64,000 nt of DNA from an uncultured virus (IMG/VR IMGVR_UViG_3300035208_001903) (IMGVR_UViG_3300035208_001903); one strand, 5' to 3'; numbered from the stretch's first letter, positions 281 to 31,000 are shown. Notes: generated from the letters alone by a model not told the origin. Numbers and translations are program-made.

Positions 281-467
281 CTACCCCATTCCATCTTATT
301 AATTATCAATGTATTATTATGGGGTTGGCGCGTATGTATCAAGAAATATGACTTAGAAGGATGTTCTTATTTGCAACACACGATATAACATAATGTCAAT
401 GAACAAAATACAATTGGCGCGGACCCTATACACAAACCATGATCACTATAGGTCCGCGCCATAATAT
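281..467 (-). promoter_or_regulatory. CRISPR leader with IHF-consensus site and inverted-repeat motif
   Basis: AT-rich non-coding stretch between cas6 and the first repeat. TATCAATGTATTA (304-316) matches WATCAANNNNTTR. TTGGCGCG occurs at 325-332 and 414-421. Inverted repeat GGCGCGGACC/GGTCCGCGCC at 416-425 and 451-460. Confidence 0.75.
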
Positions 468-3004: not shown

Positions 3005-3025
3005 AGTAACTCCTTCTGTTAAATT

Positions 3026-5389
3026 TTAATAAACTTTACGTAATCCTAGGTTCGGATCATAAATTCGACTAATATCAGGTAATGGTGTTTCTGCATATCG
3101 AGATAACTTAAACCAATCTTGTAAGTTATTTGGTATTCCTTTCTTTTTATAATTACTAATATCATAACCACTGTTTTCTAATTCTTCTAATATTCTTTTT
3201 ATATAACTGGGATTAATTAATTTTCCGTTTAAGTCTCCGTCTGTTAAATAAGTTTCTCGTAGTTCTGGTCCGTCTGTCATAATATCTTCTGGTTTTAGCC
3301 ATTCGTTGGATCCTTTAATTGAAACAGTAAAATAATAAGCTGGTAAAGGATTTCTTAATGATTTCCCTAGTTTTTGTTTTTTATCTGTTTTAGCAGTAAT
3401 ATTATCATTATAAAAATCATCAATCATTTTATAAGGACGAAAAGAAACCAATCCTATATCAATATTGTTAGTTGGATAAACTAATCCTTTTTGATATTGG
3501 TCTCTTAAGTATTCTGTTATCTTTTTTTGAATATTTTCGTCATTATAAAAAGTATTATACACTTTATATAATTCATTAATTGTATATTGTTTTTTTATAT
3601 TAATTTTTTTATAAAGATAATCCACCCACATAGCTCTTAGTTTATATGAATAAATACAATTAACTGCGCCCATCTCCGATTTGTTATTTTTCAGTTCTAA
3701 ATTAACTAAGTTAATATATGCATCTTCTATTGTTCCCCATCTATTAACGCGACCTATACGTTGAAATGTAGATTCCGGTGAACAAATAGAATCATATAAA
3801 ACTTTAAATGATAAATCCATAGAAGCTTGTATGACAGGAGCAGACGAAAGATTTTCTTTGTTTTGAATACCTGTTCCTTCAATATTATTATTATCACGAC
3901 CAAATTTTTGAAATATCGCGTCCATTCTTTCTTTTCTATCTTTATTTGTAAAACGATGATGTATTAAATGAGTGTAATTTTTTAAACTATATTCATCTTG
4001 AGCATTAGAAATAGAATTGTGTATTACTACTGAACCTTCTATTGATCGATTAGGCATTTCATTAATAATGTTAATGTTATAATTTTTATTATGAGCTGCT
4101 TCATAATGATCATTTTTGTTTGGTAATACTACAGTTTCTTTTTCACCATCCCACATTTTATTTAAATTCATAGGAGTGGCAGATAATAATAAAGTATAAC
4201 TATTTGTAGTTAAACGATGTCTTGCACGCATAAAAGTAATAAAAGCAGCATATAGAGGACTATCTTGAACAAACTCATGATATTCATCCATAACAATATC
4301 TGCACCCATAATAAAAAATAATCTATCACTTATTTGATTTTTTATCATCGGACTAATTAAATTATCTAAATTAGTAATAACAATATCAGAAGAAAACCCT
4401 GGCTTTTCATCATCAAAGTTCTTTTCTTTACGTTCGCCTGTTAAATACAACTCAATGTTACATTTAATTCCTAAATTTTTAATTTCTTTATTAATTATAT
4501 TATAAACAGATATAGATACTTCATTTCTAGGACATACCCATATTAATTTACGTTTACGTTTAATATTCCAAAGTAATCCTACAATACTTTTACCAAAACC
4601 AGCAGGTGCTTTTATTATTGTGGTTTGTGAATTTTTTAATGTTTCTACAACTTCATTTTGTAAATTAAATCTTTTTGATTCATAATTTTTAGGACATATT
4701 GGAACACCAGAAATATCACTTAATAATTTTGATTCAATCAACTCATTATGATTTAAATTACCATTTAATATATTTTTTATATCTTCAATTTTTAATCCAC
4801 TAACATATCTATCAGCCGACAAAACACATGTTCTAATAACTAATCTTTCGGCATTATCATTTTTATTGCCGATAATACCAGCATCTTCAATAAAAAGATT
4901 AGGAATATTAGAAGTATAATAAGCACTATTTGATAAATTATTAATAATATTATTTTCAATATAATCCCAAATAGTATTTAAACTACCAATTTCTTCAGTA
5001 GATAATCTTTCAATTATATCATCACGATTATATGTACGTAATTTTTTGCGTTGTATTATACGTATAGGACAAGCGTGTGTCCAATATATAGCTGATAATA
5101 TGTTTATATCATTTAATTTATTAGCAGTATAAGCCCACGATATTTCATGATGCATAGGAAATTCTTTGGAATACTTTTCTTTAGAACCACGATAATACTT
5201 TTGATAATATTCAACAGCTTTTCCAATATCGTGTAATAATCCCGCTTTATATGCACAATCAGCCAATATATCATTTAGTCCAATACTTTTTGCCATTGTT
5301 TTAGAAATTATTGCAACGGCTTTTAAATGATCAATCAATTTCATATCAGGATCTGTTTTAGCTAACAGACACAAAACATCATTAGACAT
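3026..5389 (-). CDS. cas3: CRISPR-associated nuclease-helicase Cas3 (HD + SF2), compact 787 aa, no Cas2 fusion
   Basis: HD domain: DHLKAV, LLHDIGK, HHEIS, SADR. Helicase motifs: APAGFGKS, DEYH, LLSATP, QRIGRVNR. Confidence 0.95.
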   Translation of the reverse strand: MSNDVLCLLAKTDPDMKLIDHLKAVAIISKTMAKSIGLNDILADCAYKAGLLHDIGKAVEYYQKYYRGSKEKYSKEFPMHHEISWAYTANKLNDINILSAIYWTHACPIRIIQRKKLRTYNRDDIIERLSTEEIGSLNTIWDYIENNIINNLSNSAYYTSNIPNLFIEDAGIIGNKNDNAERLVIRTCVLSADRYVSGLKIEDIKNILNGNLNHNELIESKLLSDISGVPICPKNYESKRFNLQNEVVETLKNSQTTIIKAPAGFGKSIVGLLWNIKRKRKLIWVCPRNEVSISVYNIINKEIKNLGIKCNIELYLTGERKEKNFDDEKPGFSSDIVITNLDNLISPMIKNQISDRLFFIMGADIVMDEYHEFVQDSPLYAAFITFMRARHRLTTNSYTLLLSATPMNLNKMWDGEKETVVLPNKNDHYEAAHNKNYNINIINEMPNRSIEGSVVIHNSISNAQDEYSLKNYTHLIHHRFTNKDRKERMDAIFQKFGRDNNNIEGTGIQNKENLSSAPVIQASMDLSFKVLYDSICSPESTFQRIGRVNRWGTIEDAYINLVNLELKNNKSEMGAVNCIYSYKLRAMWVDYLYKKINIKKQYTINELYKVYNTFYNDENIQKKITEYLRDQYQKGLVYPTNNIDIGLVSFRPYKMIDDFYNDNITAKTDKKQKLGKSLRNPLPAYYFTVSIKGSNEWLKPEDIMTDGPELRETYLTDGDLNGKLINPSYIKRILEELENSGYDISNYKKKGIPNNLQDWFKLSRYAETPLPDISRIYDPNLGLRKVY

Positions 5390-5415
5390 ACTGTAGCCTT
5401 TCTATTAAAGTTTAG

Positions 5416-5488
5416 TAGGCCTGGAGAGATTTAAACTCTCGACTCTCACCTTAAAAGGGTGATACTCTATCAACTGAGTTACAGGCCT
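5416..5488 (-). tRNA. tRNA-Lys(UUU), atypical A19/U56
   Basis: Cloverleaf: acceptor AGGCCTG/CAGGCCT, D stem ACTC/GAGT, anticodon arm TCACC-CTTTTAA-GGTGA, T arm GAGAG-TTTAAAT-CTCTC. Followed by CTA rather than CCA. Confidence 0.88.
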
Positions 5489-7035: not shown

Positions 7036-7566
7036 TTAACTTATAAGACCATTTAGATGAAACATATCATTTATTTGTATTAAAGCCTCAGCATTACCTT
7101 TAGCATCATCAACCGGATTATGTGTATGAGAAGTTTGCCTTAATTTTTTCCAAGCACTTCCTTTATATAAATTTTTAACTAAACCAGAATAGATATCGCC
7201 AATACGTCTACCAGAAAAACCAAATGGATTTTGACCTAAGAAGTAATGGAAATAATAATTAATAAACTGCCAATCATAAGCTAAATTATCAGAATAAAAT
7301 ATCATACGATTACCATCATTATTACTATTTAAAAAACTATTGAACTCAATCATAACTTTTTTTGGATCATTAAATAACTCGTGTTGTTCTCTAGTTATCT
7401 TACTAACAGCTAATGCTAAAGGAACCCATTCACTTGATATAGGTTTAACTTCACCATAGAAAGTAGTTTTAAGTTCTCTATCAACCTTTACAACACCAAA
7501 ACATACCATTGAATATTTACCGGGAATAGGACCGTCAGATTCAACATCAATCACAAAGGAACTCAT
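7036..7566 (-). CDS. DEDDh 3'-5' exo(ribo)nuclease
   Basis: Motifs VIDVESDGP, DWQF and HTHNPVDDA. Start moved to MSSFVID because of the GAGGAG RBS. Confidence 0.85.
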   Translation of the reverse strand: MSSFVIDVESDGPIPGKYSMVCFGVVKVDRELKTTFYGEVKPISSEWVPLALAVSKITREQHELFNDPKKVMIEFNSFLNSNNDGNRMIFYSDNLAYDWQFINYYFHYFLGQNPFGFSGRRIGDIYSGLVKNLYKGSAWKKLRQTSHTHNPVDDAKGNAEALIQINDMFHLNGLIS

Positions 7567-8582
7567 TGAAATACTCCTCATCAAATAAAAGTCTAATATC
7601 AATATCTGAAAATTTATCTACTAATTTATAATAAGTAGTATAACCTAATCCTTCTAGTTTCATTTGATTAACTAATGCATTTTTAATATGAGAACGAAGT
7701 TGTATTTTCACTTTCTCTTTTATAAAATGAATATGACCTACTTTAGCTTCATCTGGTTTTAATAAATTCATTAAGTGTCTCGTTTATTTCATTTCTTATT
7801 GTTATATTAAAAAATATACGATTTCTTCTAAGTTTACCTTGTAATATTTCTAACTTTTTATAATTATTACAAAACATTTTATAGAGATCTTTTTCAATGC
7901 AATTCCAATAATTCATTCTCATTATATCCTTAAAGTGACGTATAATGCCACCTTCATTACTTATTTCTTTTAGTTTCATCTTTATTAAAATTTCCCTCTA
8001 ATGAAGTTATTACTCGACCAAAAATTAAATTATTTTTCTCAATTTTATCTTTCATTAATTTTATACTTTCGTTATTCATAATACGAAAAAGTATAAAAAA
8101 ACTAAATGGAAATATTTTTATTTGTCCAATTTGAAGTATAAAATCAGCTTCATCGAGACATTTTTTTAGTTTCATATTCTAATTGATGAGCAATAAGGTT
8201 TTGAATGACTTTCATTGTTACAGTTAAAGTAATTGATTCATCTAATAAAGCAATTCCTATATAAGAATTCCATATATGTTTTGTAAATTCATCCCATAAA
8301 CAACTTCTAATATTAGAATGAATAATTTTAGAAACACTATATTTACTATCAATTTTATTTAGTTTCATTAACTTGCTCCATAATTTTAGAATTGAGTTGG
8401 CCTTTAATTTCCTGCCAACCTATATCCCAAACCAGTGAAGTAATTTTAGACCAAATTTGATAATGAATTTGAATCACAGCTAGATCTATTAATTGCACCC
8501 AAACTAAAGAAATAATTGGCTCATTATTTTTTAATTTATTTAATTTCATTATAGGTTCATTACAAAGGTCAATTAGTTTCAT
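7547..8582 (-). repeat. tandem cluster of 5 small MKL-family genes (7547, 7749, 7957, 8150, 8355)
   Basis: 72-76 aa ORFs, each starting M(K/N)L and overlapping the previous ORF's ..NET/NEF end. Confidence 0.75.
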
Positions 8583-14961: not shown

Positions 14962-15201
14962 TTAATGTATTTTATTTACTTCATCGACTTGAGACACGAC
15001 TTGAGAACTGACTTGAGAAAAGACTTGAGACACGACTTGAGAATAGACTCGAGACACGACTTGAGAAAAGACTTGAGACACGACTTGAGAATAGACTCGA
15101 GACCAGACTTGAGACCAGACTTGAGAATAGACTTGAGACCAGACTTGAGACTCGACTTGAGACCCGACTTGAGACCTATTTTTTATTTTAGTTAGTTTCA
15201 T
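14962..15201 (-). CDS. MKL-family protein built from (x-S-Q-V)n repeats
   Basis: 12-bp unit NNN-TCT-CAA-GTC repeated about 15 times after MKLTKIKNR. Confidence 0.75.
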
Positions 15202-17275: not shown

Positions 17276-17339
17276 TGTCTAGTACCTTTCTATTCAGGTA
17301 TGACAACAATATACATCATGGTAACTAAAAAGTCAAGAG

Positions 17340-17506
17340 GGTAATTACACTTTCTAGATACGCCTACGGTAACTGAATACCGACCCGCTCCTAGTTTATA
17401 GGCTGCGGCTATATTCGTTCAACGTGACAATCCTTGCCCGGGTTTGGATTAAAGGCACTTGGGGCCTACAAGGCTCTAAGCCACGCTTGTCAAAAGTGTA
17501 ACTACC
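17340..17506 (-). ncRNA. putative structured ncRNA (~167 nt) after promoter and boxA-like site
   Basis: 14-bp closing stem GGTAGTTACACTTT/AAAGTGTAATTACC and several internal hairpins. No ORF on the transcribed strand. TGTTCTTTGAAA at 17511-17522. Confidence 0.65.
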
Positions 17507-17544
17507 TGACTTTCAAAGAACAAAACAAATATACATTATGGTAT

Positions 17545-18228
17545 TCAGTTTGTCAAGGTCTTCACGAAAGAAAGTCTACCTTTACATTTCAAACATATTC
17601 TAGTTTGACCTTGTAGTATTCTGTTATGTTTTATAGAAGTTAAATGAAACTCCCGGCAGTTACATTTATATACAAAGGGTCTTGAAACTTTTCTGGCTGC
17701 TTGGGTTTCATAAGAGTGACAACGTTCTGGAGTTAAACCAAAGACTACTATCATTATGTTTTGCCATTCCCTACCATGAGGTTTTACATTATAACCGTAT
17801 TTAACTCTATTCAACTGGTGTGCAATCTCATGCGGTATAACCTGTTTCAAGTAATGTTCTAGATTGTTCTTAGCAATTTCAAGATTGAATCTATACTTCG
17901 TGTGACAAAACATTCCACCACAATGACCTTTCAAGTCAAAGTGAACTGGTAACTTAGGTATGTTTATATCAGGAAAGACCTTAGCGATTTTATTATAGCA
18001 CTCGTTGACTTTATCTTCTATAGCAGTTTTAATATCATCATTGTGGTATGTATCTATTGAATTAGAAGTAGTTTGATTTTTCAATAGATAGTTTTGTATT
18101 GTGGCATGAACGGTTTGAACTGTTATACCAAGTTGAAGTGCTACTTGTTTTTTACTTTCGGGGGTGTTATTGATCTTACCGGTTTCAAACATCAGGCGGA
18201 TTAGTTGGGCTTTACTTATTGTTGACAT
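17545..18228 (-). CDS. SprT-like zinc metalloprotease with N-terminal HTH-like region
   Basis: VIPHEIAH (HExxH), HGREWQ, and a C-terminal CxC..H..CxxC zinc ribbon. Confidence 0.88.
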   Translation of the reverse strand: MSTISKAQLIRLMFETGKINNTPESKKQVALQLGITVQTVHATIQNYLLKNQTTSNSIDTYHNDDIKTAIEDKVNECYNKIAKVFPDINIPKLPVHFDLKGHCGGMFCHTKYRFNLEIAKNNLEHYLKQVIPHEIAHQLNRVKYGYNVKPHGREWQNIMIVVFGLTPERCHSYETQAARKVSRPFVYKCNCREFHLTSIKHNRILQGQTRICLKCKGRLSFVKTLTN

Positions 18229-18313
18229 TGAAATACCTTTCTATTCAGGTATGATATGAATATACATTGTGGGAGTTAGTTTGTCAAGAGGGTATACTTA
18301 AATACTTTATAAT

Positions 18314-18389
18314 TAGTTTAAACGGTTAAATAGAAGACCTGGTTTCGTCTTGGTTCCCTGTGCTAAGTTAATAGCAAAGATATTTCAGT
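18314..18389 (-). ncRNA. copy 1 of 5 of a ~76-nt promoter-driven small RNA motif
   Basis: ACTGAAATATC-hairpin-GGGAACCAAGACGAAACCAGGTCTT..TTTAACCGTTTAAACTA starting about 7 nt after a consensus -10. Confidence 0.65.
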
Positions 18390-18428
18390 TAGAACAATAT
18401 ACATCATGGAAGTTAATTTGTCAAGGGT

Positions 18429-18467
18429 AAAAAGAAATGGCCCGCACCGAGACAGGTACGAGCCATT
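18429..18467 (-). terminator. intrinsic terminator
   Basis: AATGGCTCGTACC-loop-GGTGCGGGCCATT followed by TCTTTTT on the minus strand. Confidence 0.8.
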
Positions 18468-18469
18468 CC

Positions 18470-18679
18470 TTCCCTTCTATACTCAACAGTCACTATCCAT
18501 TGGACTGCTCGCCTGCAAGCGACTCCATGTAAGTCCTTTGCAGAGAACTTACAATGTCGTGAGATTTTTAAAGAACAAAGTCACCATAGTTGGGATACAC
18601 AATCGAAGTATCCATTCAAGGGCTCCTGTATTGTTCTAGGGGGATAATGTTGCATTCCTAGTACAGGCTATGGCTAAAA
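18470..18679 (-). ncRNA. two tandem structured RNA domains, each preceded by a boxA-like site; the second has complementary hairpin loops
   Basis: boxA-like sites at 18680-18691 and 18566-18577. Domain 1 is closed by GCCATAG/CTATGGT with two inner hairpins. Domain 2 loops CTGCAA and TTGCAG are complementary. Confidence 0.65.
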
Positions 18680-18739
18680 TGTTAAAGAACAATCTTTCTT
18701 GTATTTATAATATACATCATGTATCTTGAAAAGTCAAGA

Positions 18740-18898
18740 GGCAATTATACTCCAGCATTTTTCCGATTTTCACGGATGGTGCTTGGATTCGCCAATTCTA
18801 AAGTCTTGATCCATATGGTCGCCTTTCGACTTGACACTCCCAGCTAAGGGTCGTGTCTTATGGATTGCAGCGTCTCGATTCCGCCAAGTATAAAGGCC
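18740..18898 (-). ncRNA. putative structured ncRNA (~159 nt) after promoter and boxA-like site
   Basis: Closing stem GGCCTTTATACTT/GAGTATAATTGCC, inner ATCCATA/TATGGAT stem enclosing two hairpins, and the same 5' leader as the 17340-17506 RNA. Confidence 0.65.
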
Positions 18899-19168
18899 CC
18901 GGACTTTCAAAGAACAAAACAAATATACATCATGCCGCACAGATTGTCAAGACCCAATTGAAACATTGTGTAACATAAGGGGTTACCTGCATTATCAACG
19001 TAGCAACCTGATGAACCAAAGCAATACCAAAGCCTACCACCATAATCAGCATCATAACAAGGAAGGAACCTACCGTGAGAAGGATAGCACCGATTGTTGC
19101 AAGCATTTCATTTCTCCTTGTTTAAGTTATGATACTAATATACATCATGGTACTTAGTTTGTCAAGAC

Positions 19169-20183
19169 CTATTCAAATTTATATACTGAAACATTTGGAC
19201 CGTTTCGCATATCGTTTGAAACAATAACAGCTTCAACAAGGTCCCACTCACTACAATCAATGTTTCTCCACTTAGCAATATAACCGGCATGTTTTGAACA
19301 AGCTATCGGCGCCTCCCGTTGCATTGAACCAATATTATAACCTTGATCTTGCATATACTTTATAGCTTTATTAACAGCTTTAAAGTCTTCTGAACTGTCA
19401 ACACTGAACATAAGATCATACTTTCGGTTAGTTGATGTGGCGATTTCTTTTACGTCTTTAAGTGAACTCATAATGTTTTCCTTTCAGTTAATCTTAATAT
19501 ATATCATGGTACTTAGTTTGTCAAGAGTTATTTAGATTTCTTTTTAAGTTGTTTCAATGTTTCACCGCCGCCGCAATCCTTAGTATTTTTATATTGACAA
19601 GTCTTGCAGGCATTCAATCCTTCAAACTGTACTATCCAACAGTCCGAAGTTAATGTAGACTGATCAATTTCCTTTGAGAACGTAGGAACTATTTGGCCGT
19701 TTTCAATCTTGGCTTTTTGATAAAGCATTGTTAGTTTCCTTTCAGATTATTTTATCGTCCTTACCAATTGTATAGCTTGAACCACGACTTCTTTTAGTAA
19801 GCATCAAAAGAAAAACGGGTTTCCATCCAGATGTCACACCAATAGTACCCCGTTTCTTTTCATAACCAAAGTCAACAGTTACACGTTCACCACTGTTAAA
19901 TGCTGGTATAAAAGATTTATTAAGATCGGAAGGATCAAACGACTTACCATATTCACGTTGTTTACGTTCAATATAATCATTAAATTGCATTGTTAGTTTC
20001 CTTTCCAAGATATTTTTCTGTATAGTATTCAATTGCTTTAACGTTATCAGTTTCATAAAAGAGAACGTTATCGGTTAGGTTATAAGTATTACAAAGGAAT
20101 TGACCTAACCTCAGAGGATTCTTTTTGGTCTGATAATACTCTAAGACGATTGCATTGAATTTGATTATAGGTTCGTTATTCAT
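19169..20183 (-). CDS. small early hypothetical proteins (19169, 19528, 19742 with probable start MQFND near 19990, 19980)
   Basis: Short ORFs behind consensus promoters or GAAAGG RBS sites. Confidence 0.55.
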
Positions 20184-20506
20184 AGTTATAATATACTATA
20201 TGGTTTTAGGTTTGTCAAGAGGGCAAGATATATTATGATTAAGTAAATATGTTACGCGCTCAACAACAAACTTATTCAACGGAGGTTTAGCCTGAGTTCC
20301 AAAGATGGCTTTATTACTATTAGTATCAACAACAACCCAGCCCTGATAGTTCTCTTGATACTCTGCCTTGTATCTTTTAAGAACCTCTGTATGTTGAATT
20401 GTTTTTCTCATGACAATAATATATATCATGCCTAACGAAATGTCAAGAGTTGTTTTAATTTAAATAAGACCTTGACAAATTAACTACACTGATGTATATT
20501 GTTATT

Positions 20507-20582
20507 ACTGAAATATCTGGTGGGTCTTAATTCACCGGGGAACTAAGACGGGACCTGGTCTTTTATTTAAGCGGTTAAACTA
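20507..20582 (+). ncRNA. copy 2 of the ~76-nt small RNA motif
   Basis: Same conserved blocks, hairpin TCTGGTGGGT/ATTCACCGGG, own promoter at about 20472-20500. Confidence 0.65.
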
Positions 20583-20598
20583 AAGATTAAATAAAACA

Positions 20599-20622
20599 AG
20601 AGGAGACCTTTCGATCTCCTCT
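20599..20622 (-). terminator. intrinsic terminator hairpin
   Basis: AGAGGAGA/TCTCCTCT stem with a T-rich tail on the minus strand, downstream of the 20657 gene. Confidence 0.65.
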
Positions 20623-20656
20623 GTTTCCAATTAAGTGAATCTAATCTAGTTGAAGA

Positions 20657-20821
20657 TTATTCCCGGCCAACCGCCCTGTCAACCGCCTGCTTGACCGTCT
20701 GAGGAGTCATACCGACCTTCCGGGCGATCTCGCTGTTCGACATCTTGGACATCTTCGCCAGGACCACCGCCGCCGCCGACCGACTCTTGTACTGCACCGC
20801 TCCCATTTTGTAGGCCTTCAT
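20657..20821 (-). CDS. small HTH DNA-binding protein, GC-rich gene
   Basis: YKSRSAAA..SNSEIARKVGMTPQTV HTH pattern; paralog of 26207-26404. Confidence 0.75.
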   Translation of the reverse strand: MKAYKMGAVQYKSRSAAAVVLAKMSKMSNSEIARKVGMTPQTVKQAVDRAVGRE

Positions 20822-20932
20822 GTTTGGCCCCTTTCTTTGATTGAAGTGATTAAGCATTGAAGTCTTCTTGTTTCTCATGTTACTAATATACATCATGGTA
20901 CTGAGTTTGTCAAGGGGTAAAGTTAATTATTT

Positions 20933-21429
20933 TTAAAGGATAAGATCTTCAAGGTAATCGGGTTCCAGTCCGTATTCCTCTTCCATAAAATCAAACGGCA
21001 TATCGCCATCTTCCAAACGGGCAGTCAAAGCATTTTTGGCCCGGGCAATTTCTTTATCAGCTTCTTCTGCCGTCATGCCGTCACGTTCCATCAAGACCTT
21101 TTTAAGTTCGCTCATACAATATCCTTTCTGTTAAGTGTAAGGATAATATAATTCATGGTACTGAGTTTGTCAAGGGGTAAAGTTAATTATTCTACCCATA
21201 TTAAATTATCATCACAGTAATCATATATTTGGCTTATAACTTTATTAAACTTTGCTTCAGTTTTAACTTTCTTAATAAAAGGAATGAACTGCTTAAGGCA
21301 TGATATACTTGAAAGCCGTTCAATCCATAAAGGTTTAATTCGTTCAATTTCAATTAATTCATCAGCTGCTGAAGAATCATATGAGTAGATTAAATCCGTA
21401 AGTTTGATCTTCTGTTTCCAGTTTGCCAT
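20933..21429 (-). CDS. two small early hypothetical proteins (20933-21115, 21187-21429)
   Basis: Each has a near-identical ~60-bp promoter/leader module. Confidence 0.6.
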
Positions 21430-21569
21430 ATTGTTTCCTTTCTGTTAAGTGTAAGGATAATATATATCGTGGTACTGAGTTTGTCAAGGTTTATTTTAAT
21501 TTAAATAAGACTTGACAAACATCTCGCCATGATATATATTATGTATACCTAAACGAAAGAAGGTATTCA

Positions 21570-21926
21570 ATGCCAAGAGGTCGAAAGCCAAATCTTAATC
21601 CTGTAACAGTTGATACTTCCAAACTTGCAACCCTGCCTGAAACCAAAGAGAAAAACGGATATCATTATACCTTGGTAACTCGTTCAGCCAAAGCCGCAAT
21701 ATATAAAATGGTGAACCTGAAAGAACCTGAAGACAAGTCAGTTCATTATGAGGTATTCAAAGTCTGTATAGCACCGGCAGTTACATTAATAAGTAAAACA
21801 TCTGGCAAGGCTTATGTATATCCACCTACTGAAAGATTTCCCGGTAATAATGACTTTGGTGTTTATGCCTGGACATATAACACTAAAGAATATGCAATGC
21901 AGAAATATAACGAACTGAACAAATAA
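21570..21926 (+). CDS. hypothetical protein with AT-hook-like N-terminus
   Basis: Starts MPRGRKP; has its own plus-strand promoter at about 21512-21540. Confidence 0.65.
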   Translation: MPRGRKPNLNPVTVDTSKLATLPETKEKNGYHYTLVTRSAKAAIYKMVNLKEPEDKSVHYEVFKVCIAPAVTLISKTSGKAYVYPPTERFPGNNDFGVYAWTYNTKEYAMQKYNELNK

Positions 21927-21965
21927 GACCTTGACAAATTAAGAACCATGATGTATATTGTTATT

Positions 21966-22044
21966 ACTGAAACATCTGAGCGGGTAGTCTAACCGGTCGG
22001 GGAACTAAGACGGAACCTGGTCCTTCATTTAACCGCTTAAACTA
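21966..22044 (+). ncRNA. copy 3 of the ~76-nt small RNA motif
   Basis: Conserved blocks after the promoter at about 21931-21959. Confidence 0.62.
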
Positions 22045-22266
22045 AAACTATAAAAAAAGGAATGAGTACCTTTAGAATGATCAATTCCAAGGTACTCATC
22101 TTAGACCTTCTCGAGTGTCTAATTTATAACTACTATACCTGATGATGAATCGTATGCGTAGGATATTGAATAGTTGTTTCTAGAATAAACTATCTCACCT
22201 AGCAGAAAACGTATCAAACAGATAGTTCGTTATTTATCCTCTCTTTCAGTTCATACATAATATACA

Positions 22267-22644
22267 TCATGTCTTTAAAAAAGTCAAGGCCCAGTTTAAT
22301 ATTTTTTTAGGTGAAGTCTGTTGATTGATAGTCGGTTCAATTGTTTTAATCATTATAGGATTAGTTTCAATGCCATTACGTTTTAAGTATTGTTCAAGTG
22401 CTTTACGTCTGGCATTAATAGTAATAGGTGAAGTAAAAGACTTACTTTTATTTAATTGTTGTTCTAGTTTATATAGAAGGTTAGTTTTAATAACTTCCTT
22501 AATATGTCTACATGTTCTACGGAAAGCAAAGCCTGAACAAGTACAATAGATTGAATTATTAGTCTTAGTAAGTTTATATGTTGAGCCAGACTTACTATGA
22601 CAAACAATTAAATTATCTTGGATAGTAAAGGTATCTTCAGTCAT
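22267..22644 (-). CDS. SWIM zinc-finger protein
   Basis: [14 protein letters not shown] (CxC..CxH). Confidence 0.75.
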
Positions 22645-22875
22645 TTATTTCATTTCATTGACTTGAGACTCGATTTGAGACCAGACTTGAGAACTGACTT
22701 GAAACCAAACTCGAGACCCGACTTGAGACCAGACTTGAGAATCGACTTGAGACTCGACTTGAGACCCGACTTGAGACCAGACTTGAGAATCGACTTGAGA
22801 CCAGACTTGAGAATCGACTTGAGAATCGACTTGAGACCTGACTTGATCCCTATTTTTAATTTGTCTTAGTTTCAT
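22645..22875 (-). CDS. MKL-family protein built from (x-S-Q-V)n repeats
   Basis: 12-bp repeat array, about 16 units. Confidence 0.75.
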
Positions 22876-23843
22876 TCGTCTGATTCTTCTGGCTCTTCAG
22901 GAGCTTCAATATTAAGGGAAGGGAAATACATAATACTATCCATACCCATTGAATCAGTATGCATATCACGAAAACAATTAATAACAGTTTGCTTAGTTGT
23001 AAATGGTAAAGAAACTAATTCTTCCATTGTACATGATTCTACCATATCAATAATAAATCCAGCAATAGAACCGATAGACCCAACAAGACCAAAACATTTC
23101 TTTCCATACATAGCACGCCCGGAATAATTATAATATGGTTCCAGTTTATTATCTTCAGCACAACTAATTATATCTTGAGCAATATCTGAATCAGAATCAA
23201 TTGTAATGTTATTCATACTGTTTCCTTTCAGTTAATTTGTCAATCTATATCAAGATGTTTAATACAAAAATCAGCGGCACCTTCATAATCATCATACCTA
23301 AAATAATTAGCACGTTTATATGCGGTTTCAGTAATTCCTTCAAACGGCATACTCTCTTTACCGGTAGAAGGATATACTACAATATCATCTGAAGAACGAT
23401 TCTCAGAAAATGCAACCCAAGTATACTTCGGTTTATCACCATTAATATCACCAAGATTACCAATTATAAAACCTTGTTCCCTACAATTCTGATAATGGTT
23501 CAATGTCAAATAATCATTACTTTTAATTGTCTTAAGTTTATAATTAATCGTCTGAAGAAGTTTTCGTGCCACATCAACTTTATTCGTGTGAATTTTCATA
23601 ATGTTTCCTTTCTATTCAGGTATGATATGAATATACATTATGGCTAAGTAAATGTCAAGAGGTAATTTCATCAAAAGAATTTCTTAATACATTATAGGCT
23701 ATTGCATTATCAATCTCTATATCTACATAATTCCCATTCTCATTAACTATATAACCAGTATAAGACTTATTACCACTACAAAACTTGGTTGTATTATTAC
23801 TTAACTTTAAATTAGTTCCTCTTTTAAACTTTAACTTAGTCAT
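22872..23843 (-). CDS. three hypothetical proteins (22872, 23240, 23655)
   Basis: Co-oriented ORFs with RBS. 22872 has a YSGRAMYGKKC motif seen in phage hypotheticals. Confidence 0.55.
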
Positions 23844-24087
23844 TTAGTTTCTCCTCATTTACTTGAGACCTGACTTGAGACCAGACTTGAGACCAGACTT
23901 GAGACCAGACTTGAGAATCGACTTGAGACCTGACTTGAGAAAAGACTTGAGACACGACTTGAGAATCGACTTGAGACCAGACTTGAGACCTGACTTGAGA
24001 AAAGACTTGAGAACTGACTTGAGAACTGACTTGAGACCTGACTTGAGACCAGACTTGAGACTGATATTTTATATTAGATAGTTTCAT
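23836..24087 (-). CDS. MKL-family protein built from (x-S-Q-V)n repeats
   Basis: 12-bp repeat array, about 17 units. Confidence 0.75.
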
Positions 24088-25055
24088 ATAACTTTAAGGA
24101 AGTCTTCAACGGTATGTGCATTCAAAGCATTACGAATATACCTGACATCATTACCACCAATCACCCTACGCCCATTCCCTTGCTCCTCTGCAATCACTCT
24201 AGCACGGTCTATCTCATAAGACTTCTTGGTAAACTCTTTAACAGGATTAAGTTTTGAATTATTCCTAACTTCAAATTCATCCGCTTTATCTTCACAAGCA
24301 CCGTCATAACTATTTTCAAATCCCATAATTCCTCCTTAATCAATCCATGAACTTACTTCAATACCATCATATCCATAATCTTTCAATGTCTTAATGGCAG
24401 CCTTACACTCTGCAACATTAACTGACATCTCCTGCCGACAAAGTGAAGTAATAATAATCAATTTATAATCAAGAACTCCCTTATACATAATCCAACTTCT
24501 GTTATTACCAGACCACTCATTATTCATAAACGGTATATTTTTCTTAATAACTTTAACTAACTTAGATCTTCCATCAAGCGATATGCTAGCTCCTCCACAT
24601 ACATCCAACATAGTCCCAACACACTTATTATCATTCAACTCATCATGAACTGTATATGCAGGTCCACGGCTTTTCAATTCATTAAGAACATTCTTTCCGG
24701 CAAGAGTAGCACTTTCAACAACCTCGTTCATTACATCATTAATTGATTTCATAATACATTCCTTTCTATTCAGGTATGATATGAATATACATTAGTGAAG
24801 TTAATTTGTCAAGGCTTATTTTGACCGCCCAGTTGGTAGATACCTTTCAATTTTCCTACGATAAAAACCAAACGGGAATGACGTATTAAGAATACTCGGA
24901 TCCTTAATAACACCAACACTATCCAATCTAAACCATTTGTCTTTATCAATAGGATGCACTTCATCAACACCAGCAATAGTCTTTTCACCAATTGACAACA
25001 GACGATATCCCTTACCCGGATCGTAGGCCTGATACAAATTGTGATTGGTTTTCAT
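24084..25055 (-). CDS. three hypothetical proteins (24084, 24336, 24816)
   Basis: ORFs behind promoter/leader modules. Confidence 0.55.
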
Positions 25056-25175
25056 TACTAATTCCTTTCTATTCAGGTATGATATGAATATACATCATGC
25101 CCATTAAAATGTCAAGAGTTATTCTAAACTAAATAAAACCTTGACAAACCTAAAACCATAATGTATATTGTTATA

Positions 25176-25250
25176 ACTGAAATATCTGGTAGACTAAATC
25201 TACCGGGGAACTAAGACGAAACCTGGTCTTCTATTTAAGCGGTTAAACTA
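25176..25250 (+). ncRNA. copy 4 of the ~76-nt small RNA motif
   Basis: Hairpin TCTGGTAGA/TCTACCGGG; promoter at 25141-25169. Confidence 0.65.
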
Positions 25251-25357
25251 AAGGTTAAATAAAAATAGCACTCCAACCACTAACAGGATTGGAGTGCCCT
25301 AAAATTTAAATTTTCAAACTTTAAGTAAATTAGAATTAAGTATTATGTGTTTTTAAT

Positions 25358-25885
25358 TTACGCCGGGACCTCCTCGGTCGAAGTGACTGCTACCGGTTCC
25401 GGAGTCTCAGTAACAGTGTTGTCAACAGGCGCCGCTTCCGGTTCCTTATCCTTCTTTACCTTCTTGGCTTTCTTGGACTTCTTGGCAGGCTTTTCCTTTG
25501 CCGGTTTCTTTGCGGCCTCTTCCTTCTGCCGCTTTTCAATATCTTCTTTGGTGGGAAGATGTTCGATACCAGCCTCTTTCAGGATCTCATTCAAAGCGGC
25601 CTTTGAAATCTCAACACGCTCTGAAATCATATTGGCGCTGTAATTGCCGGTCTTGGCCAAATGCAATGCCCTGTATGCCATATGACGGGCCGCAACCTTA
25701 CCATTCTTATCCAGAGCAGCCGCAACTGTCTGGGCCGAAATAACATCCTTCTTGGCAGCCTCGTTGATTACCTTGGCAATCTCTGAGGAACTGGTCATTC
25801 CACCCTTGGCCAATGCCCTTGCCGCATCAGAAGCCGAATTATACTCCACACCCTTAACCATAACTACTACACCTTTACGTGCCAT
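25358..25885 (-). CDS. HTH protein with Lys/Ala/Pro-rich histone-H1-like tail, GC-rich gene
   Basis: GVEYNSASDAARALA..SEIAKVI..AQTVAAA is related to the two small HTH proteins. Tail AAKKPAKEKPAKKSKKAKK. Confidence 0.7.
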   Translation of the reverse strand: MARKGVVVMVKGVEYNSASDAARALAKGGMTSSSEIAKVINEAAKKDVISAQTVAAALDKNGKVAARHMAYRALHLAKTGNYSANMISERVEISKAALNEILKEAGIEHLPTKEDIEKRQKEEAAKKPAKEKPAKKSKKAKKVKKDKEPEAAPVDNTVTETPEPVAVTSTEEVPA

Positions 25886-26206
25886 CAGCAACCCCTTTCA
25901 TTGAGTTAATATCCGTTCCAGCCATTCAAATAACAATATACATCATGCCCTTGAAAAAGTCAAGGGGCAAAATTCATTTCTTGACGATACCTTTTAGGCT
26001 TTATCACTTTAAAAATATTCATATCATACTTGTTAGAAACAACCTTAACTGCTTCTGCATAACTCTTTGCCAGTATAAACATTGCACCACGAAGATGATT
26101 CACTTCAATATTTACACGATAACTTTTCATATAGTATCCTTTCTCTCGCCAGTCTATACGACCTGAGAAACTTTCCTGTTTGCCCTGGATAAGCCAGGGC
26201 ACTAAC

Positions 26207-26404
26207 CTAACTGCGCCGGAGCAGCCCACCGACCCCGAGGTCCCGGGCCATCTTCGCCGCCATCGCCGCCGACACCGTGGCCGACCGGATCCCGACCTTC
26301 TTGGCAATCTGCTTCACCGGCATATGAGGATACCGGACCGCCATCGCCACCGCCGCCGCACTCCGACTCTGATACTTAATCGCCCCAAGCTTATAGACCT
26401 TCAT
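26207..26404 (-). CDS. small HTH DNA-binding protein, GC-rich gene
   Basis: YQSRSAAA..VKQIAKKVGIRSATV; paralog of 20657-20821. Confidence 0.75.
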   Translation of the reverse strand: MKVYKLGAIKYQSRSAAAVAMAVRYPHMPVKQIAKKVGIRSATVSAAMAAKMARDLGVGGLLRRS

Positions 26405-26489
26405 AAGGTCTCCTTTCATTGTTTGTTTAGGGGTCTTCTTTTCCATGCTTATAATATACATTAGTGCTGTTAGTTTGTCAAGTCTTATT

Positions 26490-27611
26490 TTAAACTATTT
26501 TATATAGAATTTCATGTTTCAAATCGTGTATTGCTGAAACTATCTTATCATAGCCTTTATAATTATGATTGACTCCACCGATATAATCTTTCATATGCTT
26601 AACTTCTCTTACATAAAATTCATGTTCAAAAAATCTATAGTCTGATGAACTGAAATAAATCATACAATCATCAGTAAACTTAATAAACGCAGAACAACAA
26701 TAATGATTAGGATGAAAGTCAACTGTAGCTTGTGGGAAACTCTTAACTAACAATGCCTTAAGCCGTCTGGTCTGAAGTTTTCCTTTAGGTCCCATATATC
26801 CACCAGTTTCACCATCCATAGGAACATAAACTGAATTCATTGTTCATCCTTTCGTTATAGAACTAATATACATCATGGTAACTAAAAAGTCAAGAGTTAA
26901 TCCCATTTAACATTTTCAAGGTCTTCCGTGGTAGGTACTTTCCAATTAAGTATCTTACCTGTTGCTAGTTCTATATCAATCATTATATAATCACCATAAT
27001 GATCTCCAGGCATGAATTCAGGAACATAACCATCTCTTGAAGCTAACTGATTACCTATATCATCTAACAAATCAACACTACAACAATCACTACACTTAGC
27101 AACAATACTAATAACCTTTGCATTACTGGGATTCATACTAACTCCTTTGGTTTAGTTTCTTTTATTTGTTGCTTTATTTTTTCCCATGAATGAGATAAAA
27201 TCTGGTTATCAATTATATCTATAACTTTATGAAATATTACAGGATCCATTTGCGACATTATTTTAAATAAACAATCACCCCACAATGCCTTCTGAACTTT
27301 TATATTAGATAGTTTCATTGCCCTAGTATTCCTTTAACGGCATCAGCTACTTCATCCTGTTTATCAATACTATTAGGGCAAATCTTATTGTTACAATGAG
27401 CTCCATCTACTAACTCACTACCACATAAATCGCATTCGTTCTCAAACCTTACTATAACTGTTTCACCATATATATCAGTAAAACACTTAATCAAATTGTT
27501 CCTAACCCAAACCTTCTCCTCATTATCAAAATCAGTACCTAAATCAAGTTCCGTATATATCCCATCAATACCAACAGAACTATCCCCTTTAGTCGTCAAT
27601 GTTACCTTCAT
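26490..27611 (-). CDS. early hypothetical proteins (26490, 26897, MKL-family 27133, 27315)
   Basis: ORFs behind promoter/leader modules. Confidence 0.55.
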
Positions 27612-27996
27612 TTGTATCCCCTTTCGTTATAGAACTAATATACATCAGGTAAACTAAATTGTCAAGAGTTATTTTAAATAGAATAGATCTGAAGGTTTGA
27701 TTTAGGATTTTTAAGAACTAACTGAGACATATCCATATTAACATTAAACCAACTATCATACAATTTAACCGGATGAAAACCAGCTATACTAAACTTACCA
27801 GACTCACAATATACCTTCTCAATACAACTCCTTCTAGACCTCTCCATTGAAGGATACATTTTAATACCTATATAATACATACTATGCCTTTCATTTAAGA
27901 TACAACTAATATACATCATGCCTAAGCAATTGTCAAGGTCTTATTTAAATTAAAATAACTCTTGACTTCTTAGTTACCATAATGTATATTGCTATA

Positions 27997-28075
27997 ACTG
28001 AAATATCTGATAGGTCTTCTATATCTATCGGGGAGCAAAGACGGAACCTGGTCTTCTATTTAAGCGGTTAAACTA
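27997..28075 (+). ncRNA. copy 5 of the ~76-nt small RNA motif
   Basis: Hairpin TCTGATAGGT/ATCTATCGGG; promoter at 27962-27990. Confidence 0.65.
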
Positions 28076-28076
28076 A

Positions 28077-31000
28077 TTAAATAAACTTCATATGTATTTC
28101 ACCCATCATTATATTATAAGCACTAATATCTGCCATAATAAGAAAATTATCAATACATCTATTACTTAATACTTCCCTAATATAAAAACTAATAAGTATT
28201 TCATTATATAACCTAATCTCCATATCCCAATATAAATCCATATCAATATCATGATACAACCTAGAAGAACTATTACCAATACAATCACTTAGTCTCATAT
28301 ATCTCACTTTCAATCATATTACTTAATCTAATAAACACCTGATACCTATCTATAATAGTCATATATATAATCTCTGGTACTATCCAATCTAAACTATCCT
28401 TTAATATATCAAAATTAATCGCGCCAACTACATAATTATTATAATCACCATCCTTTAAATTACTTAACCTCATATAATCCTATTAACTCCCGTTTAACTA
28501 TACTACCAATCATATCCATATTCCCTAAACTCGATATTTCCACACTAAAATTATCCTGTATCTTATCCAATATATCTAAATCAAAACAACTCCATATACT
28601 TAACTCTAATATCTGTATCATATCAATTACTATACCATTAACATTCATTATATCATTTAACCTTAACTGCTTCATGTAACTCCTCCCCTAATATATCCTT
28701 ACATATCCTTATAGAACTAAACCCTATTAATGAACTCACTTCCTTAGGCAATATCTCCCTTAAATCCAACTTCAAATACAATAACCTATCATTAACCTTC
28801 CATATATCATTTAACCTTAACTGCTTCATGTAACTCCTCCCTTAATATAGCCTTATCAATTATTACCCAACGAAACTCTTCCCGGTTATACATACTTATA
28901 GGCACTAATATACTTAACTTATCCTTGAAATACAATAACCTATAATACGCAATAGTATCAAACACACAATCCCAATAAACTATATTATCCTTAACCTCTC
29001 CTAACTTCATCTATACCTTCCCTTATTAACCTTAGTATACTAAGTTCCATTAAAATCGATGGCTGTAACTTAATCAACCATATTTTAATAGAACCATTAA
29101 TTAAACTATCTAACCTATTATTAATATCCCCAAAATAAGAATTATACATATAAGACCGCTTACGTAACTCTCTTAACTTCATATACACCAGCCCTAATAT
29201 AAGGATAAAGTAATCCTACTACCTTTAAATAAACAGAATACTCTAACCTACGTAAAACCATTAAAGAACTACTATAACTTAATGCAACTATCCCATCAAT
29301 AGAACAACTACACTCCCTTACATATCTCTCAACCCCTATATAACACTGTAACCTAATATTGTCTATATCCCTTACTTCATCTAGTCTCATTTAACCTCCT
29401 ACGCTTATAAGTAGCATATATCTCCAACTCAATTAAATCCTCTATAGGATTCTTATAATATCTCCTAGTCATTCCACAACCACTCATATAACTTGGTACT
29501 AAATACTCCATCCAGTCTATAAACCTTTGCAAATTAATCCTGTTCTTATTAATCTCAATTAACTCCCAATACATATCATCCATTATATCTACACCTATAT
29601 AATCACCTAGTCTCATTAATACCCTCCAAATAACTCATCATTGATACTGTTACCTATTGAATATATCAAACTACTATCTATTACATTCAAATCAGCAGCG
29701 TCAAATAACCAACAGATTTCATATAACATATCACTTACCATATCATGTAACACCTTAGGGTCTTCCATCCACTGAATACTATCTAACTCACTTAGTCTCA
29801 TACACCCTCCAATACCTTATCTATACTTACTTCATCTATAGCACTATCAATAAAATTAATCGATTCCATATCTATTGCCATTAACTCATTACTAAGTAAA
29901 TAAACCTTAGGATACTCTAACAACTTATTATGAAGTTCACTTATTGCAACAGGATTAAACATATACCTGTTATTCTTTATATCCATTAACTTCATCTATA
30001 ACATCCTTTACATAAAGAGACGAAAGAACATCTACACAATCCCATTCACTACTCTGTAATAACATAAGTATACTAACCTCATTCCTAACAGTAATTATCC
30101 AATCATTTATAAACCTGATACTAGGCATATACACATATCTACGACTATGATTACTTATCTCTATTAACTTCATCTCTTATACCTCCAGTAAACAAATCCC
30201 AATCATCACTCTGTAAACTTAAAAACCTATCAAAATATCCCCAATCTAACTCCCTAGTCTCCTTGTAAACTATATCCCATATCTTACCCTCTAAATCTAC
30301 TTCACCCCAATCTAACCATCTATTAATTTGTATATCCAATAGTTTCATGTATCTTCTCCAATATCAATAAACGATCTCTACCAAAACTATCTCTATCCAA
30401 TTTAACTCCAAACCTTTGCCATACCCGAGTCAAACAAGTATCAGGCACAATACTATCCCATAAAAGACTATTAAACCTAACAAACTCATTACCACGCATC
30501 TCACCATCTACCATATCAATTAAGTCAATCCCATCCTTAATATCCCTTAGTCTCATAAGATTCCTTTTACATTATCTATTTCAGTTCCTATAAACCATAT
30601 ACCGGTCCAAAGTAAATTCATAAACTTCTTTTCGACTATAGCCATATCATCTTCTTCTAACTGTATTAAAACTTCACGAAACATAGTTGAATCCATATCC
30701 ATAGTACTATTACTGATATGGGAAACAATACCTATAGTTTCTTTTACCTTAATGGAGTTATCAATATCTATTAGTTTCATGGTTTATTACTTGGTCTAGG
30801 ATGGATGAGTAGCACTGTTTTAGGTTAAGTTCGACAAATCTTCTGACTTTAGTATCCATAGTTGTTCTGTGACCGTTAAGCCAAGTTGATTCGAATAGGT
30901 TAAACTTAATAGGTGCTAGACAGAATTGGATATCGATATGATGACTAGTGATATATTGGTTATTAGGTTTAAGGTTAAGTAGTTTCATTGACTTGATCCA

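What the first reader, a model, noticed from the sequence alone, without database searches (positions are those of the whole stretch)
18314..28075. Five dispersed copies of an unrecognised ~76-nt small RNA, each with its own strong promoter
Seen: copies at 18314-18389 (-) and 20507, 21966, 25176 and 27997 (+), all beginning ACTGAAA about 7 nt after a -10 box. Layout: AUC, a hairpin whose sequence differs in every copy but always pairs, GGGA(A/G)C, the AAGAC-8-nt loop-GUCUU hairpin, then UUUAA-N4-UUAAA. None has an ORF. Three copies (20507, 25176, 27997) are driven by one half of a back-to-back promoter pair, and the four plus-strand copies face oncoming transcription. Inference: covariation plus multiple copies suggests an abundant early RNA acting as a protein sponge, antitoxin mimic or anti-defence decoy. 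I cannot match it to a known family.
Basis: partly seen in the sequence, partly recalled or inferred. Interest (0 to 1): 0.78.

Follow-up and report, generated by a model that had tools for sequence, protein, structure and literature searches.

The report
Five-copy promoter-driven small RNA in phage
An uncultured large phage carries five copies of a roughly 78-base non-coding unit, each placed directly behind its own strong promoter and sharing a hairpin that changes sequence but keeps pairing, which most likely marks a new family of early small RNAs whose job is still unknown.

Summary
Five copies sit at 18310-18389 (-), 20507-20584, 21966-22045, 25176-25252 and 27997-28076 (+). Each starts with ACTGAAA, with its A seven bases after a TTGAC-N18-TATATT promoter. 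None has an ORF, and nothing matches in Rfam or ARAGORN.

The first hairpin (P1) is supported by compensatory changes and by conserved G-U pairs that exist only on the promoter-sense strand. The other two hairpins (P2, P3) never covary. Folding energies are no better than shuffled sequence.

Outside the window the element appears only in a 100%-identical metagenome contig and in three contigs of a 90-97% identical strain. There are no RNA data.

Four of five copies have no co-oriented gene downstream. Four of five abut a minus-strand terminator. So a classical cis leader is unlikely.

- **Best reading (about 0.4):** sibling, trans-acting early small RNAs that present invariant motifs to an unknown partner.
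- **Rivals:** a put-like or collision-type boundary element, a DNA-level site, a CRISPR-repeat mimic.

This is a new RNA family within a known kind, of moderate interest. In passing: the phage carries its own type I-F-variant-like CRISPR-Cas locus.

The parts
18310..18389 (-). Element copy 1 (c18389m), co-directional with the flanking genes
   Evidence: (88.2 bits)
18396..18424 (-). Promoter of copy 1 (TTGACA-N17-TATATT)
18441..18456 (-). Minus-strand terminator-like hairpin plus T-run just upstream of the copy 1 promoter
   Evidence: also the spurious Thr_leader hit
18259..18287 (-). Second promoter, directly after copy 1, driving the SprT-like gene at 17545-18228
20507..20584 (+). Element copy 2 (c20507p)
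   Evidence: (100 bits)
20472..20500 (+). Promoter of copy 2, back to back with the minus-strand promoter at 20418-20446
20599..20622 (-). Terminator of the oncoming minus-strand operon, 15 bases beyond copy 2
21966..22045 (+). Element copy 3 (c21966p), behind its own promoter and downstream of the only plus-strand gene (21570-21926)
   Evidence: (94.3 bits)
21931..21959 (+). Promoter of copy 3
22062..22099 (-). Hairpin (11-bp stem) with a T-run on the minus strand: terminator of the oncoming operon. Read from the sequence; not called by the scan tool
25176..25252 (+). Element copy 4 (c25176p)
   Evidence: (99.8 bits)
25141..25169 (+). Promoter of copy 4, back to back with the minus-strand promoter at 25087-25115
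25267..25298 (-). Terminator of the oncoming minus-strand operon, 15 bases beyond copy 4
27997..28076 (+). Element copy 5 (c27997p). The stop codon of minus-strand ORF 28077-28313 abuts its 3' end, with no terminator hairpin between
   Evidence: (103.2 bits)
27962..27990 (+). Promoter of copy 5, back to back with the minus-strand promoter at 27908-27936

Best explanation
The five units are sibling genes for a roughly 76-80-nt non-coding RNA.

**Proposed sequence of events**
1. Host sigma-70-type RNA polymerase starts at the A of ACUGAAA, 7 nt after the -10 box. This step is inferred from the promoter consensus.
2. The transcript has 9 unpaired 5' nucleotides (ACUGAAAUA).
3. It then forms hairpin P1. 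The base of P1 (UCUG/CGGG) is fixed, and its upper 5-6 pairs are free to change as long as they pair. This is shown by compensatory changes.
4. After P1 comes an invariant 3' half: GGGGAAC-UAAGAC-(G/A)(G/A)ACCUG-GUCUU-CUAUUUAA-(GCGG or CCGC)-UUAAACUAA. It can form two weak 5-bp hairpins, P2 and P3; these are possible but not shown.
5. I infer that the invariant stretches are read by sequence, by a protein or RNA partner, and that the RNAs act in trans as abundant early regulators or decoys. P1 would then be a structural scaffold.
6. The 3' end is probably set by the stable hairpin of the neighbouring convergent terminator (3 of 5 copies) or by processing in the A/U-rich stretch after AAACUAA. 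This is inferred.

The partner is unknown.
For: **The copies**
- There are five copies and no others in 64 kb.
- Every copy is in the same register behind a consensus promoter.
- Element-specific conservation begins at the predicted start and ends near +78, after which the copies diverge.
- There is no ORF.

**P1**
- 8-9 of the first 9 positions pair in 8 of 8 sequences on the sense strand, against 5-7 of 9 on the antisense strand.
- Three P1 pairs show changes on both sides. Overall, 92.2% of cells pair, against 27.5-57.5% when the partners are slid. The covariation score is 0.182 against 0.101 in shuffles, and 0 of 500 shuffles reached it.
- In one ortholog pair (25176 copy versus L015), an A-U pair became G-C and the loop gained 3 nt while pairing was kept.

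**Context**
- Four of five copies have no co-oriented gene downstream. The fifth is followed by a complete second promoter before the next gene. A cis leader therefore has nothing to regulate.
- The copies sit in gaps between operons, next to terminators, as stand-alone RNA genes often do.
- The element is retained in a 90-97% identical strain at three orthologous places.
Against: - There is no expression evidence: no listed run is RNA.
- The unit has no terminator of its own. In the plus direction the neighbouring hairpins are followed by few U. Copies 1 and 5 have no hairpin at all.
- P2 and P3 never covary, and P2 is broken in 3 of 8 sequences.
- MFE z-scores against shuffles are -0.79, -0.16, +0.08, -1.37 and +0.10, so the RNA is not unusually stable. 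The antisense strands score about as well: +0.31, -2.15, -1.07, -1.35, +0.56.
- No convincing base-pairing target was found in the window.
- The family is known from one phage lineage only: 8 sequences, of which 3 are near-orthologs.
- No partner has been identified.
Confidence: 0.4

Rival explanations
1. Boundary or cis-acting element. The unit belongs to a composite operon boundary made of a terminator, the element and one or two promoters. The plus-strand promoter fires head-on at the end of the upstream minus-strand operon. Either polymerase collision backs up termination, or the nascent RNA modifies the polymerase as the HK022 put RNA does. In the second case the polymerase would read through the hairpin and make antisense RNA against the last genes of that operon, giving early-gene shut-off.
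For: - Of the 4 minus-strand terminator-like sites that one search reports in 16.5-29.5 kb, 3 abut a copy. A fourth abutting hairpin, at 22062-22099, is read from the sequence.
- So 4 of 5 copies lie next to a minus-strand terminator.
- 4 of 5 copies are convergent with the minus-strand genes, and they lack an effective plus-strand terminator.
- Size and position resemble putL, which is about 70 nt, made of stem-loops, and lies just downstream of an early promoter (PMC9378689, passages read).
- AAATAT at +5 to +10 fits the NANNAT -10-like pattern that the same paper links to sigma-dependent pausing. This is my reading of the sequence and is untested.
Against: - Copy 1 is co-directional with its neighbours and follows a terminator, so collision cannot be its role.
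- Plus and minus promoters are of the same class, so sense and antisense RNA would be made together.
- There are no plus-strand genes to antiterminate into.
- Collision alone would not need an invariant 45-nt sequence.
Confidence: 0.2
2. DNA-level site. The invariant palindromes AAGAC-N8-GTCTT and TTTAA-N4-TTAAA are binding sites for a dimeric DNA-binding protein, acting as an operator or roadblock just inside the transcribed region. Alternatively the unit works as single-stranded DNA, for example as a replication or priming signal. P1 would then be a DNA hairpin.
For: - P2 and P3 stems are invariant, with no covariation.
- The 4-nt centre of P3 appears as GCGG in 3 sequences, as its reverse complement CCGC in 4, and as CCGU in 1. 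An ortholog pair differs by exactly this flip. A flip leaves a double-stranded site unchanged apart from its orientation.
- Folding energies are unremarkable.
Against: - P1 needs pairing within one strand, and it keeps U-G pairs that are A.C on the other strand.
- Neither palindrome occurs anywhere else in 64 kb, not even at the other 29 promoters of the same class. They are therefore not general operators.
- All five copies keep the same register to a start site.
Confidence: 0.1
3. CRISPR-repeat mimic (a Racr or solitary repeat unit), or another mimic of a host RNA such as a type III antitoxin. The invariant 3' half would copy a host repeat and soak up its Cas or toxin protein.
For: [quoted passage not shown]
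- The copies here are solitary and promoter-driven, and there are several of them.
Against: - No array or other match to the conserved core was found in 185,579 species genomes. One search gave none. One search gave one hit, which lies inside an 836-aa ORF.
- None of 5 core words occurs in the 9 supplementary files of the Racr paper.
- Similarity and complementarity to the phage's own CRISPR repeat are at chance level.
- The host is unknown, so its repeats could not be compared.
Confidence: 0.07
4. Recombination or attenuator cassette with no RNA product of its own. The unit would be a variant of the promoter-plus-stem-loop cassettes (PeSLs) that shuffle genes in variable phage regions, with P1 as an attenuator hairpin.
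For: - The region is packed with near-identical promoters: 28 in 11 kb.
- Strain variants differ by cassettes cut exactly between promoter repeats: 18708->18922 and 21136->21450. Inserts also sit next to promoters in L015 and L016.
- PeSLs are defined as sigma-70-like promoters plus stem-loops in variable regions (PMC2839356, abstract and section 13 read).
Against: - P1 is followed by GGGGAAC, not a U-run, and lies after the start site.
- 23 of the 28 promoters in the region do without the element.
- An attenuator would not need the invariant 45 nt that follow P1.
Confidence: 0.1

Closest known systems
Sibling small RNAs of bacteria (for example Qrr1-5, LhrC1-5). These are recalled from general knowledge; no call supports them.
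   Same: Several dispersed paralogous genes of about 80-110 nt, each with its own promoter. Invariant stretches sit beside freely varying helices.
   Different: Those families are chromosomal, end in clear terminators with U-tails, and have known seeds and chaperones. Here the genes are in a phage, lack a terminator of their own, and have no identified target.
HK022 put RNA (PMC9378689, passages read)
   Same: About 70 nt, built of stem-loops, lying directly downstream of an early sigma-70 promoter, present in more than one copy per phage, with a -10-like word in the early transcribed region.
   Different: put acts in cis on genes downstream. Here 4 of 5 copies have no co-oriented gene downstream. 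The structure here has three short hairpins rather than two long ones. Sequence relatedness was not tested.
RNA anti-CRISPRs / solitary repeat units (PMC10651486, passages read; supplements searched)
   Same: Small non-coding units in phage intergenic regions, directly behind a promoter, acting by abundance.
   Different: The defining similarity to a CRISPR repeat was not found. The conserved part is 45 nt plus a variable hairpin, which is not a 28-37-nt repeat.
PeSL promoter/stem-loop cassettes of T4-type phages (PMC2839356, abstract and section 13; PMC4122927, abstract)
   Same: Dense, near-identical sigma-70-like early promoters with AT-rich upstream parts in a variable region of small unknown genes. 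Strain differences fall at the promoter repeats.
   Different: PeSL stem-loops lie in or beside the promoter and act as terminators. The element is a separate 78-nt unit after the start site and is found at only 5 of the 28 promoters in the region.

Membership tests
Any Rfam 15 family | Score at or above the family's gathering threshold | tested here: not met
   the only hit in the window is the tRNA at 5416-5488. (E up to 10 over 17.5-29 kb): the only hit overlapping a copy is SIB_RNA at 21.9 bits against a threshold of 56, and that hit spans the promoter and the terminator.
tRNA / tmRNA | Cloverleaf detected by ARAGORN | tested here: not met
   the only gene found is tRNA-Lys at 5415-5488.
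Racr / solitary CRISPR repeat unit | Sequence and structure similar to a CRISPR repeat of the host or of a known subtype | tested here: inconclusive
   No match in species genomes. No match in the paper's supplementary lists. No likeness to the phage's own repeat.
Racr / solitary CRISPR repeat unit | Solitary, intergenic, directly behind a promoter | tested here: met
put-type cis antiterminator RNA | Lies between an early promoter and the genes and terminators it serves, on the same strand | tested here: not met
   4 of 5 copies have no co-oriented gene downstream. Copy 1 is followed by a further complete promoter.
put-type cis antiterminator RNA | Makes RNA polymerase resistant to terminators | not testable with these tools
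   Needs in vitro transcription or a reporter assay.
PeSL cassette | Sigma-70-like promoter repeat in a variable region, with strain differences at the repeats | tested here: met
   This holds for the promoters, not for the element itself.
PeSL cassette | Stem-loop that works as a terminator or attenuator | tested here: inconclusive
   P1 is real, but it lies at +10 to +33 and has no U-run after it. It is not called by the terminator scan.
Intrinsic-terminator-ended small RNA gene | Its own GC-rich hairpin plus a U-run at the 3' end | tested here: not met
   One search finds no plus-strand terminator after copies 2-5 and none after copy 1. The neighbouring hairpins carry their T-runs on the minus strand.

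The most novel reading that the evidence does not exclude
A huge phage that carries its own CRISPR-Cas also fires, from five of its strongest early promoters, a new family of sibling decoy RNAs. The invariant GGGGAAC / GGAACC / UUUAA-N4-UUAAA motifs would titrate a host RNA-binding defence or regulatory protein. This would be an RNA-based take-over or anti-defence weapon unrelated to CRISPR-repeat mimics.
Probability: 0.25. Interest if true: 0.75.

Novelty: new member of a known kind. Interest (0 to 1): 0.5.

Why it matters
Few phage-encoded small RNAs are understood. Multi-copy ones driven by the strongest early promoters would be candidates for RNA-based host take-over or anti-defence, a field opened by RNA anti-CRISPRs.

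If the boundary or antisense reading is right instead, the element would show how a phage with dozens of tandem strong promoters keeps its early operons apart.

Either way, the cassette is small enough to test directly in a laboratory host.

Tried and rejected
**Known families**
- Rfam at gathering and at permissive thresholds and ARAGORN gave no family.

**Searches for relatives**
- Megablast of 17.5-29 kb against phage records: no match.
- Pattern scans of viral contigs with four element patterns and one promoter pattern found nothing usable. The two hits (L020, L021) lie in what reads like coding sequence with no promoter upstream and score nothing with the model.
- Species genomes: one search found none. 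The single hit (L019) lies inside an 836-aa ORF on the other strand with no promoter. It reached 30.3 bits largely because it had been selected by the pattern. I treat it as chance.
- Nearest virus record, G001: no pattern match and no model match. Four shared promoters map it collinearly to the window, and its contig ends at about window position 33.5 kb. Its silence therefore says nothing.
- Relatives of the 227-aa neighbour gene in viral contigs: none.

**Expression**
- No RNA holder is listed among the sequencing runs. The four runs laid are DNA contigs, and they gave strain variants only.

**Structure ideas dropped**
- The outer helix ACUG/CGGU proposed by RNAalifold is broken in 2 of 5 copies.
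- A pseudoknot between the P2 loop and the 3' tail is not kept in 5 of 8 sequences (reading).

**Partner ideas dropped**
- Trans targets in the window: the best duplexes, at -10 to -17 kcal/mol, are scattered in coding regions and do not recur.
- Likeness or complementarity to the phage's own CRISPR repeat is at chance level.
- Words from the element core are absent from the Racr paper's supplementary files.
- The neighbouring plus-strand 118-aa protein has no Pfam family. The protein atlas returned only unnamed viral clusters.
- A faint ANTAR hit in ORF 20933-21115 (E 0.0075, below the cut-off) was not pursued.

**Other**
- Earlier findings of this scan: none for this genome or sequence.


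Full report
**1. What is there**

- Mean column identity is 80-83%.
- A covariance model built from the five finds exactly these five in the window, at 88-103 bits. The next hit scores 20.7 bits.
- The P2 word has 5 exact matches against 0.58 expected.
- TTTAA-N4-TTAAA occurs only in the five copies, 5 times against 1.71 expected.
- In every copy the A of ACTGAAA is the seventh base after TATATT.
- No reading frame longer than 8 codons starts inside any copy.

**2. Setting**

The window is low in G+C (24-39%) and almost all of its genes are on the minus strand. It looks like part of an uncultured large phage.
- The nearest held virus record, G001, is 137.8 kb and estimated 53% complete.
- Phage records give no DNA match.
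- The promoter is not private to the element. TTGAC-N18-TATATT occurs 34 times exactly, 28 of them between 16.8 and 28.0 kb, with 23 of those 28 on the minus strand. With one mismatch allowed there are 38 matches against 6.85 expected.
- Most of these promoters are followed at once by a short leader, a ribosome-binding site and a small gene of unknown function.
- Strain variants in DNA runs differ by pieces cut exactly between promoter repeats (18708->18922, 21136->21450). This is the behaviour described for PeSL cassettes of T4-type phages (PMC2839356, abstract and section 13).

**3. Anatomy**

From the predicted start the unit reads as follows.
- ACUGAAAUA.
- Hairpin P1. Its base UCUG/CGGG is fixed and its upper part varies.
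- The linker GGGGAACUA.
- P2 (AAGAC, an 8-nt loop, GUCUU).
- CUA.
- P3 (UUUAA, a 4-nt loop, UUAAA).
- CUAA.

Beyond about +78 the copies diverge.

P1 is well supported.
- Pairing from the outside in, 8-9 of the first 9 positions are standard pairs in all 8 sequences, that is 5 copies plus 3 strain orthologs.
- In the formal count, 3 P1 pairs change on both sides. Across the whole structure, 92.2% of cells pair, against 27.5-57.5% with slid partners, and no shuffle in 500 reaches the covariation score. That count understates P1, because MAFFT misplaces a gap in two rows.
Copies 20507, 25176 and 27997 have related purine-rich arms that largely cross-pair. Copies 18389 and 21966 are truly different, and each has one internal mismatch.

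Strand:
- The conserved U-G pairs at the base of P1, and others higher up, would be A.C on the other strand. The antisense strand keeps only 5-7 of 9 pairs.
- Together with the fixed register to the promoter, this is the evidence that the unit is read as RNA in the promoter's direction.

Points against strong structure:
- P2 and P3 never vary in a way that tests pairing. P2 is broken (A.C) in 3 of 8 sequences.
- Whole-element folding energies are ordinary, with z-scores from -1.37 to +0.10. The antisense strands do no worse.
- The 4-nt centre of P3 is GCGG in 3 sequences, its reverse complement CCGC in 4, and CCGU in 1.
- The ortholog pair formed by the 25176 copy and L015 differs by this flip. 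This is the small inversion expected at any inverted repeat. It leaves open whether P3 matters as an RNA hairpin or as a DNA palindrome.

**4. Relatives**

One metagenome scan found 8 loci.
- Five belong to a 15.5-kb contig that is 100% identical to the window, so it gives no independent support.
- Three short contigs (L014, L015, L016) belong to a strain 90-97% identical. They carry the orthologs of copies 18389, 25176 and 21966, at 82-95 bits.
- L016 differs by one loop base. L014 differs by 4 bases outside P1.
- L015 differs by about 13 substitutions and a 3-nt loop insertion, including an A-U to G-C double change in P1. Meanwhile the promoter just upstream, and the terminator downstream, are nearly unchanged. 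The 3' half of L015 looks like that of the 21966 copy, which suggests exchange between siblings.
- Nothing else was found in viral contigs or in species genomes.
- G001 ends at about window position 33.5 kb, so it cannot speak to the question.

**5. Context that bears on function**
- Copies 20507, 25176 and 27997 are the plus halves of back-to-back promoter pairs.
- Copy 21966 has its own promoter and sits behind the only plus-strand gene in the region.
- Copy 18389 runs with the genes. It lies between a terminator and a second complete promoter that serves an SprT-like gene.
- Four of five copies therefore have no co-oriented gene downstream.
- Four of five lie within about 15-30 bases of a minus-strand terminator. 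Three of these terminators are called by the scan, out of its 4 minus-strand calls. One more is read from the sequence.
- Copy 27997 instead abuts a stop codon.
- The T-runs of those terminators are on the minus strand. In the plus direction the hairpins are followed by few U. The element has no good terminator of its own.

**6. Explanation**

A classical leader or riboswitch has nothing to control in four copies. Neither P2 nor P3 occurs at the other 29 promoters of the same class in the window, so they are not general operators.

I therefore favour sibling, trans-acting early small RNAs, at about 0.4.
- P1 would be a scaffold.
- The invariant single-stranded and loop words, including the twofold GGAAC-like motif, would be what a partner reads.
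- The 3' end would be set by the neighbour's hairpin or by processing.

Steps shown:
- The copies exist.
- They keep a fixed register to the promoter.
- P1 pairs.
- The pairing has a strand preference.
- There is no ORF.

Steps inferred:
- The unit is transcribed.
- The RNA is abundant.
- Where its 3' end lies.
- It acts in trans.
- Who its partner is.

Rivals:
- A boundary, collision or put-like element, at 0.2. It fits the tie to terminators and the convergent layout, but not copy 18389, nor the fact that plus and minus promoters are of the same class.
- A DNA-level site, at 0.1.
- A PeSL-like attenuator or recombination cassette, at 0.1.
- A CRISPR-repeat or other host-RNA mimic, at 0.07. 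The searches I could run were negative. The host's repeats remain unknown.

**7. Comparison and novelty**

The element is not a member of any Rfam family.
- It resembles put RNA in size and position (PMC9378689).
- It resembles solitary repeat units in being a promoter-driven solitary unit (PMC10651486).
- It resembles sibling small RNAs in its copy pattern (recalled, not checked by any search).
- It meets the defining feature of none of the families I could test.

I file it as a new RNA family within the known kind "phage-encoded small non-coding RNA". It is known so far from one phage lineage found in landfill and groundwater DNA runs. I score interest at 0.5: the element is real and unexplained, but it rests on few sequences and no expression data.

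Noticed in passing
window 1-5389 (-): Phage-borne CRISPR-Cas locus. It comprises a Cas3 (3026-5389; HD, DEAD and Cas3 C-terminal domains); a Cas7fv-like protein (1880-3004; E 6e-30, below the curated cut-off); an unassigned 297-aa ORF (986-1879); a Cas6/CasE-like protein (468-995); and an array of at least 4 full 33-nt repeats spaced 66-67 nt apart, running off the window's left end. Spacer 3 begins with the 10 bases of this phage's own -35 region.
   Followed up: partly
window 5415-5488 (-): tRNA-Lys (anticodon UUU) directly beside cas3. RNA-repair-type genes lie elsewhere in the window: RlaP at 56914-57843, a Nudix protein at 61974-62537, and an Rv2179c-like exoribonuclease at 7036-7602. Together these may point to a defence against anticodon nucleases.
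   Followed up: no
window 17337-17527 (-) and 18738-18921 (-): A second promoter-proximal non-coding family. Two transcripts of roughly 170-190 nt start with the same 20 bases (TGTTTTGTTCTTTGAAAGTC) right after promoters of the same class. They share further conserved patches and no convincing ORF. Rfam gave no hit there.
   Followed up: partly
window 18430-18708 (-): An ORF-poor stretch of about 280 nt between promoter 18709-18737 and terminator 18441-18456. It holds a possible 15-codon micro-ORF behind an AGGAG site.
   Followed up: no
window 14962-15201, 22645-22875, 23836-24087 and others (-): A 12-nt tandem repeat (GACTTGAGACCA-like, about 14 units per array; 70 register copies counted) inside several small minus-strand ORFs. 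These are paralogous small proteins made of 4-residue repeats.
   Followed up: no
window 16.8-28.0 kb: There are 28 near-identical sigma-70-type promoters in 11 kb, four of them arranged as back-to-back pairs with a shared AT-rich centre. Strain variants gain or lose cassettes exactly between promoter repeats, as described for PeSLs.
   Followed up: partly
window 20657-20896 (-): A 79-aa early protein with a sigma-70 region-4 / HTH match (PF08281, E 1.6e-6). It is the last gene before the terminator that faces copy 20507, and could be a regulator of the TTGACA promoters.
   Followed up: no
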